Assembly: GCA_963817235.1 (NCBI GenBank)
Contig: CAWFNS010000001.1
Span: 8,595 to 72,594, forward strand
Reading direction: 5' to 3'
Origin: an uncultured Actinomycetes bacterium
Lineage (GTDB): Bacteria; Actinomycetota; UBA4738; HRBIN12
Length of the DNA: 64,000 nucleotides
The notes beneath the pieces were generated by a model that was not told the DNA's origin, ran no database searches, and saw nothing but the letters and a program-made list of their open reading frames with translations. The position numbers were made by a program, and so were the translations under genes. Below are positions 38,002 to 42,252 of this stretch, in pieces (position 1 is the stretch's first letter; the number at the start of each line of letters is the position of its first letter).

Positions 38002-38778
38002 GTGGAGACCGCCTTCCGAGCGTTCGTCGCCGCCCTGTTCGGCTTCGCGTTCGGCAGCTTCCTGACCGTCGTCGTCGACCGCGTCCCGAACAAGGAGTCG
38101 ATCGTCCGGCCCCGGTCCCGGTGCCCGGGCTGCGGCACGCCGATCGCGCCGCGCGACAACATCCCGGTCCTGTCGTACCTGCTCCTGCGGGGCCGGTGCC
38201 GGACGTGCGGGATGCGGATCCCGGTGCGATACCCGTTGCTGGAGCTCGCCACCGCGGCCGCGTTCGCCGGCACCGCCGCGGTCTGGACCTCGCCCTACCT
38301 CATCGTGCTCCTGTGCGCGTTCTGCGCGGTGATGCTGGCCGTGGCCGCGATCGACCTCGAGCGACGGATCATCCCGAACCGGATCACGTACCCGTCGTTC
38401 GTCGCGTTCGCCGCCCTGATCGCGCTCGGCTGGGCGCTCGGCCAGGAGCTGAACCCGGCAGGCGCGGCGATCGGCGCGCTCGCCTACGGCGGCTTCTTCC
38501 TCGTGATCGCGCTGATCGCTCCCGGCGGCATGGGCATGGGGGACGTGAAGCTGACCGGCCTGATCGGGCTCGTGCTCGGCGCGCTCGGCCTTCGGTACGT
38601 GGCGGTCGCCGCCGGCATCGCGATCCTCCTCGGCGGGATCGCGGGCCTCGGCGCGCTGGCCGCCGGACGCGGCCGCAAGGGTGCGATCCCGTTCGGCCCG
38701 TCCCTCGCGGCCGGCGCGATCGCGGCGGTGCTGGTGGGGGAGCGGCTCGCCTCGTGGTACCTGGGCTCCGTCACCTGA
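38002..38778 (+). CDS. pilD: prepilin peptidase/N-methyltransferase (A24)
   Basis: FGSFL.VV..R, RSRCPGC, DNIPVLSYLLLRGRCRTC, IDL..RIIPN, GMGDVKL, IPFGP. Confidence 0.95.
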   Translation: METAFRAFVAALFGFAFGSFLTVVVDRVPNKESIVRPRSRCPGCGTPIAPRDNIPVLSYLLLRGRCRTCGMRIPVRYPLLELATAAAFAGTAAVWTSPYLIVLLCAFCAVMLAVAAIDLERRIIPNRITYPSFVAFAALIALGWALGQELNPAGAAIGALAYGGFFLVIALIAPGGMGMGDVKLTGLIGLVLGALGLRYVAVAAGIAILLGGIAGLGALAAGRGRKGAIPFGPSLAAGAIAAVLVGERLASWYLGSVT

Positions 38779-38844
38779 GCGCCCTGCTCCGCGTTCTCCG
38801 GCCGCCCCCTCGGAAGCCCCGAAACTCGTTGCCCCAGATGTTTG

Positions 38845-38863
38845 ACTAGGTCTGCCCCCTAGT
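38845..38863. promoter_or_regulatory. dyad ACTAGG-N7-CCTAGT, putative operator
   Basis: perfect 6-bp inverted repeat containing CTAG, in a relatively AT-rich intergenic stretch. Confidence 0.4.
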
Positions 38864-38890
38864 GTTTCGTAGGCACGCTCGCTGAGCTCT

Positions 38891-38952
38891 ATGTGGCTCA
38901 TGAGTACGGATGTGGCACATGTGGCACATGAGGAACATGTGCCATGTGGAGC
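38891..38952 (+). repeat. array of seven ~9-bp direct repeats, consensus ATG(T/A)GGCAC
   Basis: ATG-initiated units at 38891, 38900, 38910, 38919, 38928, 38937, 38944. Confidence 0.75.
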
Positions 38953-38974
38953 ACGGCAGCAGGACGGTGAGAGG

Positions 38975-39184
38975 GTGAGCGAACCGCAGGCGTTCGTGAC
39001 CGGTGGCGGCCTCCTGACGGTGGCCGAGGTCGCGGCGGCGATGCGCGTGTCGAACATGACGGTGTACCGGCTGATCAAGAACGGCGAGCTCCCCGCGGTA
39101 CGGGTCGGGAAGAACTACCGGCTGCGTGACGCGGACCTCCATCGCTTCCTCGAGGAGCGCTCGGTCCACGTGGAGGATCGGTAG
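38975..39184 (+). CDS. small excisionase/MerR-like HTH DNA-binding protein (BdtA/Rv0500A-like)
   Basis: LLTVAEVAAAMRVSNMTVYRLIKNGELPAVRVGKNYR; GAGAGG RBS before GTG 38975; stop abuts pilM. Confidence 0.85.
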   Translation: MSEPQAFVTGGGLLTVAEVAAAMRVSNMTVYRLIKNGELPAVRVGKNYRLRDADLHRFLEERSVHVEDR

Positions 39185-40231
39185 ATGGCGAAAGGCCGCA
39201 TCGGGCTCGACATCGGGTCCACCGCCGTGCGCGCCGCCGAGCTGTCGGTCAGCCGGCAGCCCTCCGTCGTGCGCGCCGGTCAGGTCCCCCTCCCGCCCGA
39301 CGCCGTCGAGAACGGCGAGGTCCGCGATCCCCTGGCCGTCACCGACGCGATCCGCCAGCTCTGGAGCGACGTCGGCTTCAAGAACCGGCAGGTCTGGCTC
39401 GGGGTGGGCAACCAGCGGGTCGTCGTCCGCGAGATCGCGCTGCCGTTCCTGCCCGAGAAGGAGCTGCGCGCCTCGCTCGGCCTGCAGGTGCAGGAGTTCA
39501 TCCCGATGTCCGTCGACGAAGCGGTCCTGGACTACGACCCCATCGGCGAGTTCGAACAGGACGACCGCAAGATGCTCCGGATGCTGCTCGTCGCGGCGCA
39601 ACGCGTCATGGTCGATCAGGTCGTGCAGGTCGTGACGGACGCGAAGCTGGAGCCGCTCGGCCTGGACCTGATCCCGTTCGCGCTCGTGCGCGCGATCGGC
39701 ACCCCGGACGTCTCGATGGACCTCGAGGACACGGGCGAGGAAGCCATCATCGACGTCGGCGCCCACGTGACGAACATCGTGGTGCACAGCCGGGGAGCCA
39801 CGCGGTTCGTCCGGATCCTCCCGAGCGGCGGCCGCGACGTGACCGTCGCGATCGCTCGCTCGATCGGCGTCGACGACGACGTGGCGGAGCGACTCAAGCG
39901 CGGCGAACCGGTCGAGGGCGCGCCCGCGCCGCAGCAGGTTCGCCAGGTCGCCCTGCAGCGCGCCGCGGCGTTCGTCGATGAGATCCGGTCGTCGCTCGAG
40001 TTCTACACGGCGCAGGCGCGCGAGGCCCGGATCTCGAAGGTGCTCGTCACCGGCGGCGGCTCGCGTCTCGAGGGCCTCCTCGAGCTGATGCGGCAACGCA
40101 TCCCGGTGCCGGTCGAGCCCGGCCGTGTCTTCCAGCAGCTCCCCTCCGAGTTGCCGGAGGACGCCGCGGCGGACGCCGAGCCGGTGCTCGCCGTCGCCGT
40201 GGGTCTGGCGATCCCGGGGGTCGACCGGTGA
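39185..40231 (+). CDS. pilM: type IV pilus alignment protein, actin-like
   Basis: IGLDIGSTAVR, QVQEFIP, IIDVGA..TN, VTGGGSRL.GL. Confidence 0.93.
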   Translation: MAKGRIGLDIGSTAVRAAELSVSRQPSVVRAGQVPLPPDAVENGEVRDPLAVTDAIRQLWSDVGFKNRQVWLGVGNQRVVVREIALPFLPEKELRASLGLQVQEFIPMSVDEAVLDYDPIGEFEQDDRKMLRMLLVAAQRVMVDQVVQVVTDAKLEPLGLDLIPFALVRAIGTPDVSMDLEDTGEEAIIDVGAHVTNIVVHSRGATRFVRILPSGGRDVTVAIARSIGVDDDVAERLKRGEPVEGAPAPQQVRQVALQRAAAFVDEIRSSLEFYTAQAREARISKVLVTGGGSRLEGLLELMRQRIPVPVEPGRVFQQLPSELPEDAAADAEPVLAVAVGLAIPGVDR

Positions 40232-40864
40232 GCCAGGTCAACCTCCTTCCCCCCGATATCCTGCAGGGGCAGCGCTACCGCCGGGTGACCGGCCTCGTGG
40301 TGCTGGCCGGGCTGGCGATCATCGGGCTGATCATCCTGTTCTACCTGCTCCAGGTGGGACGGCTCGCCTCGGTGAACAGCGATATCGACGCGCAGCAGGC
40401 GACGAACGCCCAGTTGAACACCGAGATCTCCGACCTGTCGAAGTACGAGAACCTGCAGGCGGAGGCCCAGCAGCAGCAGCAGCTCTTGAACGACGCGTAC
40501 GCGGGCGAGGTGTCGTACTCGGGACTCATGATGGACATGTCGCGCGTGATCCCGAGCGACTCCTTCCTGTCCGCCCTCTCGGTCACGACGCCCGGCGCCA
40601 CCGCGTCCACGACGACGACGCCGACGACGACCACCACGCAGTTCATCGGCTCGATGACCTCGAGCGGCGAGGCGATCGGCTTCGACACCCTGAGCCAGTA
40701 CCTGACGAACCTCGCCGGCGTCACCGGGATGGGAGAACCCGTGGATGCCGACGATCACCGCCGACACCGACATCAAGAACGCCTACCAGTACACGACCAG
40801 CGTCGATCTGAGCACGGCGGCCGAGACCGCCCGCGGACGGGGTGGGGTGACGACCGGTGGGTAG
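40228..40864 (+). CDS. pilN: PilN-family protein (frameshift near 40730)
   Basis: VNLLPP N-terminal motif, TM helix, coiled coil, IP...L..L core. Confidence 0.85.
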
Positions 40865-41492
40865 CCGCCGCGCCCCGATCATCGCCGCGGTCGGCGTGGT
40901 GATCGTCGCGATCCTGTTCTTCCTGATCCTCGTCCTGCCGAAGATGCACTCGGTCTCGGACGCGCAGGACCAGCTCGACCAGGCGCACCAGCAGCAGACG
41001 ACGCTGGAGGTCCGCAAGGCCGCCCTCGAGCAGGCGAAGCTCGACGCCCCGAAGAACCAGCACGTGATCAACAACGTCCACAAGCGGATCCCGCCGATCG
41101 CGGACGAGCCCGGCTTGATCCAGCTGCTGAACGGCGCGGCGGTGAGCGCCGGCATCGAGCTCGTGTCGCTGACGCCGAGCAACCCCGTGTTCGACGCGAC
41201 CACCGGCCTGTCGACGATCACGGTCGCCGTGAGTGCGACCGGGTCGTACTTCGACATCACGCAGTTCATGTTCAACATCGAGACGCTGCCGCGGGCCGCC
41301 GTGGTCACCACGCTGACGCTCGCGCCGGTGGATCAGACGTCCGCCGAGCCGGTCCTGACGATGTCCGCGACCGTCAACACGTTCACCAGCGACTCGAGCG
41401 CGGGCCCCGGGTCGGAGCCGGGACCGACCCAGAGCACGGGCGGTACCTCGACGGGCTCCACGACCACCGGGACCACCGGGGTGGCGACCTAG
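40857..41492 (+). CDS. pilO: PilO-family protein
   Basis: TM helix, coiled coil, IP..ADEP.LI..L, GSYFDI.QF...IE.LPR. Confidence 0.85.
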   Translation: MGSRRAPIIAAVGVVIVAILFFLILVLPKMHSVSDAQDQLDQAHQQQTTLEVRKAALEQAKLDAPKNQHVINNVHKRIPPIADEPGLIQLLNGAAVSAGIELVSLTPSNPVFDATTGLSTITVAVSATGSYFDITQFMFNIETLPRAAVVTTLTLAPVDQTSAEPVLTMSATVNTFTSDSSAGPGSEPGPTQSTGGTSTGSTTTGTTGVAT

Positions 41493-42086
41493 ATGCCGTT
41501 GGCCGACCGCGATCGACGCACCCTGATCATCGGAGGCGTGATCGTCGGCGTGCTCCTGGTCGGGCTGCTGCTGTTCACGCTCTTGAGCGGGGGAGGCGGC
41601 AACGAGGCGCTCCCGTCGTTCCCGCCGCCCGGCTCGCCGCCGCCGAGCGCCGCGCCGAGCACGACCCCGACGACCGTGCCGCACCCGGTCGCGCCGTTCT
41701 CCGGCAGGGATCCCTTCTCGAAGCCGGGCGCGTTCCTCACGGCTTCCTCGAGCAGCGGGTCGCCGACCGGCTCACCCACGAGCGGCTCGGGGAGCGGCTC
41801 CGGGACCGGCACCCCGTCGTCGTCCAGCTCGAGCCCACCACCCACGCAGCCGGGCAACGGGTCCTCCGAGTCGGTCGGCGGGCATCAGGTCGTCCTGCTC
41901 GACACGTTCCGGGTGAACGGACAGACGCGCGCACAGGTCGAGATCGACGGGACGGTCTACAACGTTTCGGTCGGGGAGAGCTTCGGGCCGGGCAACCGGT
42001 ACGAGCTCCGATCGGTCTCGGGCGACTGCGCCACGTTCTTGTTCGGGGACGAGTCCTTCACGCTCTGCACCACGCCCCAGAAGTAG
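41493..42086 (+). CDS. PilP-like membrane-anchored protein
   Basis: position after pilO; TM anchor, Pro/Ser linker with GRDPF motif, short C-terminal beta domain (AQVEIDG..Y.V..GE.F). Confidence 0.55.
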
Positions 42087-42176: not shown

Positions 42177-42252
42177 ATCGTCCGCGCTTGCCCGTGCTCG
42201 CCGGCGCTCGCCGGCCCCGGGGCGGCGGGTGCCGGTGCCTAGAATGGGCCGC

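What the first reader, a model, noticed from the sequence alone, without database searches (positions are those of the whole stretch)
38891..39184. BldC/Xis-type HTH protein preceded by a seven-unit ~9-bp direct-repeat array, abutting pilM
The array ATGTGGCTC-ATGAGTACG(G)-ATGTGGCAC-ATGTGGCAC-ATGAGGAAC-ATGTGCC-ATGTGGAGC ends ~20 nt before the GTG of a 69-aa winged-HTH protein resembling Streptomyces BdtA and Rv0500A. Related MerR/Xis-like proteins such as BldC oligomerise head-to-tail on short direct repeats. This suggests an autoregulatory nucleoprotein filament controlling pilMNOP. I know of no described Xis-like regulator inside a T4P locus, and no integrase or att site is nearby.
Basis: partly seen in the sequence, partly recalled or inferred. 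Interest (0 to 1): 0.75.

Follow-up and report, generated by a model that had tools for sequence, protein, structure and literature searches.

The report
BldC-like regulator with 9-bp repeat array
A tiny DNA-binding protein gene at the head of the pilus-assembly genes pilMNO is preceded by a conserved row of 9-base repeats, and this most likely forms a self-regulating switch in which protein copies line up head-to-tail on the DNA, as the Streptomyces regulator BldC does.

Summary
At 38891-38954 lie seven ATG-headed units. Five of them (38910-38954) are in exact 9-nt phase. They sit 21 nt upstream of the GTG (38975) of a 69-aa HTH_17/excisionase-family protein whose stop abuts the pilM ATG.

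This is the only array of four or more units in the 3.0-Mb genome. The array is not coding. No known RNA family and no sigma-54 promoter accounts for it.

Comparative evidence is strong:
- In 109 related loci the HTH gene sits directly before pilM.
- In 73 of 86 non-redundant upstream regions, period 9 is the dominant self-match period. Arrays have 3-12 units, with consensus (A/G)TG(T/A)G(G/A)CA(C/G).
- Two genomes with pilM but no HTH also lack the array.

BldC bound to DNA (6AMA/6AMK) is the only PDB sequence hit and the top fold match. Each BldC protomer covers exactly 9 bp of a direct repeat. The BldC head-to-tail interface residues and Arg30 are conserved here.

The protein fails NCBI's BldC family cut-off, and its repeat unit differs from BldC's AATTxxxxC. 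I therefore read it as a BldC-like local autoregulator of the HTH-pilMNO(P) operon: a new variant of a known kind. I found no description of it in the literature searched. Binding and the sign of regulation are inferred, not shown.

The parts
38002..38778 (+). pilD, the prepilin peptidase (A24) and upstream neighbour. Its stop leaves a 196-nt intergenic region before the HTH gene.
   Evidence: Pfam A24_N_bact 1.3e-32 and Peptidase_A24 2.1e-15
38842..38870 (+). Predicted promoter TTGACT (38842-38847) - N17 - TTTCGT (38865-38870). Inferred, and weak at the -10 element.
   Evidence: gATGTTTGAC is conserved in 57 of 79 orthologous upstream regions. Other families have TTGACa-N17-TAnnnT at the same place. 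The generic sigma-70 scan found nothing here.
38891..38954 (+). Direct-repeat array. Five units (38910-38954: ATGTGGCAC ATGTGGCAC ATGAGGAAC ATGTGCCAT GTGGAGCAC) are in exact 9-nt phase. This is the predicted operator for head-to-tail binding.
   Evidence: TRF; the repeat finder D1; unique in the genome; period 9 conserved in 73 of 86 orthologous regions
38913..38944 (.). Inverted repeat TGGCACATGT / ACATGTGCCA inside the array. It arises from the palindromic junction CACATGTG between units, and it lets the leader RNA fold into a long hairpin.
   Evidence: the repeat finder I4 and I6. RNA fold of 38877-38990: -47.9 kcal/mol, z -3.3. Leaders of other families are unstructured.
38961..38974 (+). 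Ribosome-binding region (AGGA ... GAGAGG) between the array and the start codon.
   Evidence: Read directly from the sequence. GGTGAGAGGGTGAGC is conserved in the closest relatives L001 and L003.
38975..39184 (+). 69-aa BldC-like winged-HTH protein (excisionase family / HTH_17), the first gene of the pilMNO(P) operon.
   Evidence: PF12728 1.3e-15; TIGR01764 66.9 bits; PDB hits 6AMA/6AMK only; AF2 model pLDDT 79.8; Foldseek top hits are BldC, rmsd 1.0 A over 50 residues; start fixed by homologues
39185..40231 (+). pilM. Its ATG directly follows the HTH stop (TAGATG), so the two genes are probably transcribed and translated together.
   Evidence: PilM_2 6.3e-46. The junction is conserved in about all of 109 loci.
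40228..42086 (+). pilN-like (40228-40902), pilO (40857-41492) and a PilP-position gene (41493-42086). These are the rest of the presumed operon. aroC follows at 42229.
   Evidence: PilO 4.3e-13; no Pfam hit for the other two. The ORF at 40228 begins MSQVNLLP. aroC.

Best explanation
The 69-aa protein is a BldC-like winged-HTH regulator dedicated to its own operon.

Proposed mechanism: several protomers bind cooperatively, head-to-tail, one per 9-bp unit, to the direct-repeat array that lies between the promoter and the start codon of its gene. The resulting short nucleoprotein filament hinders RNA polymerase, either by occluding the promoter region or by blocking early elongation. This gives cooperative negative feedback on the HTH-pilM-pilN-pilO-(pilP-like) transcript. 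It would hold the pilus alignment complex at a set level, or make its expression switch-like.

Shown here:
- the array, its uniqueness in the genome and its conservation;
- the gene order and the stop/start junction;
- the fold and the conserved interface residues;
- the joint absence of HTH and array in two genomes that keep pilM.

Inferred:
- that this protein, and not another, binds the array;
- the one-protomer-per-unit stoichiometry;
- that the effect is repression.
For: (1) Period match. BldC protomers each cover a 9-bp direct repeat, and 2-4 or more line up head-to-tail (PMC5859096). The array period here is exactly 9. Period 9 is the top self-match period in 73 of 86 non-redundant orthologous upstream regions, and 71 of 86 exceed the 99th percentile of shuffles. 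Periods 3, 6 and 12 are not raised.

(2) Turnover with a preserved core. Units change in number (3-12) and in sequence, but keep a core of (A/G)TG(T/A)G(G/A)CA(C/G) and a single orientation.

(3) Nearest structure. The only PDB sequence hits are 6AMA/6AMK. The Foldseek top 7 are BldC-DNA chains: TM 0.80-0.89 normalised to the target, rmsd 1.0 A, 40-42% identity.

(4) Interface conserved. The BldC head-to-tail interface (L11, E16, F21, R22, V23, W31, I40, L43, G44) maps to L13, E18, M23, R24, V25, L33, V42, V44, G45. All are invariant or conservatively hydrophobic in 36 orthologues. The position of Leu43, which is charged or polar in classical MerR proteins, is Val. Arg30, which reads a 5'-TG-3' step in BldC, is the invariant R32, and TG heads nearly every unit of the arrays found here (the unit search was anchored on TG).

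(5) One site only. No other array of four or more units exists in the genome. The one 3-unit hit lies antisense inside a permease gene. The paralogous HTH on contig C9 has no array.

(6) Co-occurrence. Genomes of the class without pilM lack this HTH. G036 and G145 keep pilM but have neither the HTH nor the array. G147 has a diverged recognition helix and no array.

(7) DNA-level placement. In other families and classes, units lie in or upstream of the promoter, which is non-transcribed DNA. Examples: L015, L021 and L023 in the spacer; L133 with CTGTGGCAC GTGTTATCC CTGTGGCGC; and L140.

(8) The stop/start junction TAGATG or ATGA with pilM is conserved.
Against: - No binding, footprint or expression data exist.
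- The protein scores 25.2 bits against NCBI's BldC model, whose cut-off is 77.
- BldC's DNA contacts Lys26, Lys36 and His46 are replaced by Met, Glu/Gln and Asn. The unit is not AATTxxxxC.
- In this genome the array lies downstream of the predicted promoter, in the leader. In several families it overlaps the Shine-Dalgarno sequence and the start codon. That would also suit an RNA-level mechanism.
- The promoter in this genus is weak by consensus (-10 TTTCGT; one search found none), so the transcription start is uncertain.
- About 15% of lineages with the HTH show no clear array.
- Outside the class, long 9-bp arrays are mostly absent.
Confidence: 0.6

Rival explanations
1. The repeats act in the mRNA leader, not in DNA. 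The tandem AUGUGGCAC units, or the hairpin they form, are bound by a protein (the HTH or another) or fold so as to control translation initiation or transcript stability of the HTH-pilMNO message.
For: The array lies downstream of every plausible promoter. In some families it runs in phase into the Shine-Dalgarno sequence and the start codon. All arrays are in the sense orientation. The leader of this genome folds into a long hairpin (z -3.3), and same-genus loci have perfect palindromes (z -5.4).
Against: Leaders of other families (L015, L016) have the array but little or no excess structure (z -2.3 and -0.3), so structure is not the conserved feature. HTH_17/BldC-type domains are double-stranded-DNA binders. 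In other lineages the units sit in promoter spacers or upstream of the -35, where they are not transcribed. L025 and L027 carry a unit in antisense orientation. There is no Rfam match.
Confidence: 0.12
2. The array is a real operator, but for a different DNA-binding protein, such as a global or pilus-specific regulator encoded elsewhere. The adjacent HTH then has another target or role.
For: No direct link between protein and site has been shown. The HTH-pilM pairing extends across the phylum (22 of 40 families sampled), whereas long arrays are largely confined to this class. So the protein can exist without such an array.
Against: The 9-bp period matches the footprint of this protein's closest structural relative. 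The array is the only one in the genome, which is unlike a site for a global regulator. The array and the HTH are absent together in G036 and G145, and the array is missing where the recognition helix has diverged. The recognition helix VSNMTVYRLIK is nearly invariant, in line with the conserved TGTGG/TGTTG core.
Confidence: 0.12
3. The array is translated, either as an N-terminal extension from ATG 38891 (97 aa) or as an upstream ORF coupled to the HTH start.
For: The frame is open from 38891. Most units begin with ATG, GTG or TTG. In some families an in-phase stop lies just before the start codon (for example L098: TGC TAG ATG).
Against: The closest relative L003 (93% identical protein) reads the array in a different frame from this window. 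The 10-nt and 7-nt units shift the frame within the array. Many arrays contain ATG TGA. Homologues start at the position of GTG 38975 with a conserved (A/P)F motif and their own Shine-Dalgarno sequence. The HTH domain starts at residue 41 of the long ORF.
Confidence: 0.03

Closest known systems
BldC of Streptomyces (PDB 6AMA, 6AMK; Schumacher et al. 2018, PMC5859096)
   Same: Both are proteins of about 68 aa made only of a MerR-like winged HTH. BldC is the best sequence and fold match in the PDB. The head-to-tail interface residues and Arg30 are conserved. The cognate-looking DNA is an array of 9-bp direct repeats of variable number.
   Different: The protein is below NCBI's BldC family cut-off (25 vs 77 bits). 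Lys26, Lys36 and His46 are replaced. The repeat unit is ATGTGGCAC-like, not AATTxxxxC. BldC is a pleiotropic developmental regulator with many targets. This protein has one array in the genome, in front of its own gene, and is fused into a type IV pilus operon.
Excisionases / recombination directionality factors (lambda Xis, mycobacteriophage Pukovnik Xis 4J2N, RdfS 8DGL)
   Same: They share the domain family (TIGR01764, PF12728) and the fold. Several of them oligomerise on tandem direct repeats (own knowledge; RdfS paper PMC11963761, listed).
   Different: There is no integrase, att site or mobile element here. The nearest tyrosine recombinase is about 62 kb away. The gene is in a conserved chromosomal position between pilD and pilM across a phylum.
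RacA of Bacillus subtilis (PDB 5I44)
   Same: It has a MerR-like winged HTH without an effector domain, and it is the next-best fold match.
   Different: According to the BldC paper, RacA binds GC-rich sites as a symmetric dimer. The sites here are direct repeats.
Second small excisionase-family HTH in the same genome
   Same: It is 58% identical, with the same length and domain.
   Different: It has no repeat array upstream and is not next to pil genes.

Membership tests
Excisionase-family HTH domain (TIGR01764 / Pfam HTH_17 PF12728) | Score above the curated cut-off of the family model | tested here: met
   TIGR01764: 66.9 bits, cut-off 28.8. PF12728: 57.8 bits, cut-off 27.
BldC family (NCBIfam NF033787 HTH_BldC) | Score above the curated cut-off of the family model | tested here: not met
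   25.2 bits against a cut-off of 77
BldC family (structural definition, PMC5859096) | The protein consists only of a MerR-like winged HTH, with no coiled-coil or effector domain | tested here: met
   69 aa. The AF2 model shows strand-helix-helix-wing-helix over residues 13-62. Best fold matches are 6AMA/6AMK.
BldC family (structural definition, PMC5859096) | Hydrophobic head-to-tail interface (F21, V23, W31 against L11, I40, L43, G44) and the R22-E16 salt bridge. Position 43 must not be charged or polar. | tested here: met
   The residues map to M23, V25, L33 / L13, V42, V44, G45 / R24-E18. They are invariant or nearly so in 36 orthologues.
BldC family (structural definition, PMC5859096) | DNA-contact residues Arg30, Lys26, His46 (and Lys36) | tested here: inconclusive
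   Arg30 is kept (R32, invariant). Lys26 is Met, His46 is Asn, and Lys36 is Glu/Gln/Asp. This is consistent with a different sequence specificity.
BldC family (structural definition, PMC5859096) | Binds tandem 9-bp direct repeats (AATTxxxxC) cooperatively | not testable with these tools
   A candidate site with the right period and variable unit number is present and conserved. The unit sequence differs, and binding was not measured.
Excisionase / recombination directionality factor | Partner integrase and att sites in a mobile element | tested here: not met
   Only two PF00589 genes exist in the assembly, the nearer about 62 kb away. The pilD-HTH-pilM context is fixed across lineages.
Classical MerR regulators | C-terminal coiled-coil dimerisation and effector domain; palindromic operator in a 19-20-bp promoter spacer | tested here: not met
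   The protein ends about 7 residues after the wHTH. The Pfam MerR hit is below threshold (16.2 vs 28.2 bits). The site is a direct-repeat array.
Sigma-54 promoter (TGGCAC-N5-TTGC) | Presence of sigma-54 in the organism | tested here: not met
   No Sigma54_DBD in this genome or in 20 relatives, whereas the controls ring.
Known RNA families (Rfam 15) | Covariance-model match in the leader | tested here: not met
   No match at E <= 1 in 38700-39250

The most novel reading that the evidence does not exclude
The module may be more than a simple autorepressor.

- The array lies in the transcribed leader. In several families it runs in phase through the Shine-Dalgarno sequence into the start codon.
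- The protein is made in a fixed ratio with PilM through a stop/start junction.
- It carries a conserved C-terminal tail (RSVxVEG) beyond the DNA-binding fold.
- In about a dozen loci it is duplicated in tandem.

The boldest reading not excluded has two forms. In the first, this winged-HTH protein also reads the repeats in the single-stranded or hairpin RNA leader, acting as a periodic translational repressor. In the second, it links the cytoplasmic PilM platform physically to its own locus.
Probability: 0.08. Interest if true: 0.85.

Novelty: new variant of a known kind. Interest (0 to 1): 0.62.

Why it matters
BldC is so far the only structurally characterised regulator that forms head-to-tail filaments on 9-bp direct repeats using nothing but a winged HTH. 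Its many small homologues have no assigned function.

Here a homologue is tied to one operon (pilMNO) and one site in the genome. Hundreds of natural variants of that site (3-12 units, conserved TGTGG/TGTTG core) are available. This makes a simple system for three questions:
- how unit number sets the cooperativity and threshold of such filaments;
- how specificity is encoded in the protein;
- how type IV pilus assembly genes are controlled in monoderm Actinomycetota, where almost nothing is known.

The HTH-pilM pairing is phylum-wide: it was present in 22 of 40 sampled families outside this class. I found no description of it in the literature searched.

Tried and rejected
- **Sigma-54 promoter (TGGCAC).** Rejected. 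No sigma-54 gene in this genome or in 20 relatives, and the -12 element does not fit.
- **DnaA-box cluster** (9-mers TGTGGACAA, from my own knowledge). Rejected on context: contiguous head-to-tail units fixed upstream of one gene across lineages, matching the box at only about 6 of 9 positions. No formal test was run.
- **N-terminal extension or uORF.** Rejected on frame changes between close relatives and in-frame stops.
- **Codon periodicity artefact.** Twelve other places in the window reach the same period-9 self-match (most in known coding regions), so that statistic alone is weak. In the intergenic arrays, however, periods 3, 6 and 12 are not raised.
- **Wider regulon.** Scans for 2, 3 and 4 units found nothing above the controls except one 3-unit hit inside a permease gene. 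Single TGTGGCAC words are not enriched: 48 found, about 100 expected.
- **Conserved RNA structure.** Rejected as the common feature. No Rfam hit.
- **Generic sigma-70 scan.** Found no promoter in 38700-39250. The promoter given here rests on conservation only.
- **Link between array length and tandem HTH duplication.** Confounded by phylogeny, so not claimed.
- **Covariation of residue 38 with unit position 9.** Q goes with a final G, and E with a final C. This is suggestive but rests on two large clades.
- **A literature search on 'Rv0500A OR BldC'** returned mostly brushless-motor papers. The likeness to BdtA/Rv0500A therefore stays untested.

Full report
**1. What is there**

The window carries a complete type IV pilus cluster:
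- two T2SSE ATPases, a T2SSF platform protein, four N-methyl pilins and a PilX-like protein;
- the A24 prepilin peptidase pilD at 38002-38778.

After a 196-nt intergenic region comes a small ORF, then pilM (39185-40231), a pilN-like gene, pilO and a PilP-position gene. aroC follows.

The small ORF is open from ATG 38891 (97 aa). Its HTH_17 domain begins only at residue 41. Orthologues from 80 lineages start 10-14 residues before the conserved LLTV motif, with a conserved (A/P)F motif. The gene is therefore 38975-39184, GTG start, 69 aa. Its TAG stop abuts the pilM ATG.

**2. The array is real and beyond chance**

- TRF finds a period-9 array at 38910-38949 (score 52, unit ATGTGGCAC). The repeat finder lists five copies at 9-nt spacing.
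- Seven ATG occur in 63 nt where 0.46 are expected. The array is 52% G+C in a 71% G+C genome.
- Period-9 self-match is 0.60, and none of 5000 shuffles reached it. Periods 3, 6 and 12 are flat. This matters because coding DNA in this genome often shows period-9 self-match through codon bias.
- With a weight matrix built from all lineages, this is the only place in the 3.0-Mb assembly with four consecutive units above the reversed-sequence controls (44.8 vs 30.6).
- The one 3-unit candidate elsewhere lies antisense inside an FtsX-like permease gene.
- Single TGTGGCAC words are not enriched.

**3. Conservation**

The protein has a close orthologue in 38 of 41 genomes of the order. The 80 loci kept were all uncultured soil Actinomycetota.

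In 109 loci the gene is directly followed by pilM. In about a dozen of these, two tandem HTH genes precede pilM.

In 86 non-redundant upstream regions, period 9 is the top period in 73, and 71 exceed the 99th percentile of shuffles. Arrays have 3-8 units, and up to about 12 in one family. The consensus is (A/G)TG(T/A)G(G/A)CA(C/G), always in the sense orientation. Unit number and sequence turn over while the period and the core persist. That pattern marks a selected protein-binding array rather than a slippage relic.

**4. Not coding, not a known RNA, not sigma-54**

- The closest relative (93% identical protein) reads the array in a different frame. Many arrays contain ATG TGA. In this window the 10-nt and 7-nt units shift the frame.
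- Rfam finds nothing.
- The leader of this genome can fold into a long hairpin (z -3.3), and some same-genus loci carry perfect palindromes (z -5.4). Leaders of other families carry the array with little or no excess structure (z -2.3 and -0.3). The hairpin follows from the palindromic junction CACATGTG between ATGTGGCAC units.
- Sigma-54 is absent from the lineage.

**5. The protein**

- It meets the excisionase-family domain models.
- Its only PDB sequence hits are the two BldC-DNA complexes.
- An AlphaFold2 model (pLDDT 79.8) matches BldC chains first (rmsd 1.0 A over 50 residues, 40-42% identity). RacA, RdfS and Pukovnik Xis come next.

The BldC paper (PMC5859096) reports the following:
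- Each protomer binds a 9-bp direct repeat, and 2-4 or more protomers line up head-to-tail.
- The interface is F21/V23/W31 against L11/I40/T42/L43/G44, with an R22-E16 salt bridge.
- Arg30 reads a guanine while stacking on the 5' thymine, that is, a TG step.

Mapped through the alignment, these residues are L13, E18, M23, R24, V25, L33, V42, V44, G45 and R32. All are invariant or conservatively hydrophobic in 36 orthologues. A TG dinucleotide heads nearly every unit of the arrays found here. The unit search was anchored on TG, so this is not an independent measure of conservation.

The differences are real. Lys26 is Met, Lys36 is Glu/Gln, His46 is Asn, the unit is not AATTxxxxC, and the NCBI BldC model scores 25 against a cut-off of 77. 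I therefore say it works like BldC and do not file it as a BldC family member in the curated sense.

**6. Link between protein and site**

- Genomes of the class without pilM lack this HTH.
- Two genomes keep pilM but have neither the HTH nor the array. They show a WhiG-like CTCAAG...GTCGAA motif instead.
- One genome has a diverged recognition helix and no array.
- The second small HTH of this genome (58% identical, contig C9) has no array.
- No integrase lies within about 62 kb.

**7. Where it acts**

A conserved TTGACa-N17-TAnnnT promoter lies upstream in other families. In this genus it reads TTGACT-N17-TTTCGT at 38842-38870. That is weak, was not found by the generic scan, and has no transcript data behind it.

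Arrays begin about 46-90 nt after the -35 element and end 0-60 nt before the start codon. In several families they run in phase into the Shine-Dalgarno sequence and the ATG. That position fits a roadblock or promoter-proximal repressor. It also leaves room for an RNA-level mechanism.

In favour of DNA:
- the domain type;
- units inside promoter spacers in several families;
- in other classes, units within or upstream of the promoter (L133: CTGTGGCAC GTGTTATCC CTGTGGCGC; also L140 and L167).

**8. Breadth**

pilM occurs in 206 of 301 sampled Actinomycetota genomes. I fetched 40 pilM upstream regions from 36 families outside this class. In 22 of them the same HTH (LRVSNMTVYRL...RVGKNYRI) sits directly before pilM. 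Long 9-bp leader arrays are largely a feature of this class.

**9. Verdict**

The mechanism is cooperative head-to-tail binding of the HTH to its own 9-bp array, giving feedback on the HTH-pilMNO(P) operon. I hold this at about 0.6. The main rivals are RNA-level action (0.12), another binder (0.12) and translation of the array (0.03).

I found no paper describing such a regulator in a pilus locus. Earlier notes of this scan on other genomes reached the same reading. They are not independent evidence.

Noticed in passing
L015, L016, L018, L020, L021, L119, L128-L132, L136, L142, L144 (about 50 nt upstream of the -35 of the HTH promoter); not present in the window: A conserved palindrome AATTACA-N5-TGTAATT (variants TGTAGTT, TGTCATT) lies upstream of the HTH promoter in several families and even in other classes. 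It looks like the site of a second, dimeric regulator.
   Followed up: no
L111, L134, L135, L137, L146 (no HTH); L118, L120, L122, L124, L125, L144, L162, L167 (with HTH): A sigma-28/WhiG-type motif (CTCAAG or CTAAAG, about N15, GCCGAT[A/G]) lies directly upstream of pilM where the HTH is absent. It also lies upstream of, or overlapping, the HTH promoter in many lineages that have the HTH. In this window the matching stretch reads TTGCCCCAGATGT (about 38829-38841) and looks degenerate.
   Followed up: partly
L078, L080, L082, L085, L098, L103, L105, L106, L107, L109, L110 and others: The HTH gene is duplicated in tandem before pilM. The first copy ends right after ...ERSV and lacks the C-terminal xVEG tail. 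The second copy has a longer basic N-terminus.
   Followed up: partly
window 39158-39184 (residues 62-69): A conserved C-terminal tail RSVxVEG follows the winged-HTH fold. R62, S63, V64 and E67 are nearly invariant, and the tail has low pLDDT. It may be a contact for a partner or for the next protomer.
   Followed up: no
G000:C9:64152-64316 (minus strand), outside the window: A second 64-aa excisionase-family HTH (MKTPFTEARLLTVNEVADLLRVSRMTVYRLIKEGQ...), 58% identical. It has no repeat array and no pil neighbours. One copy is present in most genomes of the order.
   Followed up: partly
window 38877-38960: The predicted leader RNA folds into a long imperfect hairpin that pairs the first and last units of the array (-47.9 kcal/mol, z -3.3). 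Same-genus loci L004-L008 carry a perfect 16-bp palindrome there.
   Followed up: yes
L133-L172: The HTH-pilM pairing is phylum-wide in Actinomycetota, including low-G+C lineages (31-40% G+C). There, repeated GTTGAC/TGTTAAC words at 10-14 nt spacing surround the promoter in place of a 9-bp leader array.
   Followed up: partly
L113 (G145) and L111 (G036), family f7: These are natural variants that keep pilD-pilM but lack both the HTH gene and the array. They would be useful comparison strains or sequences.
   Followed up: yes
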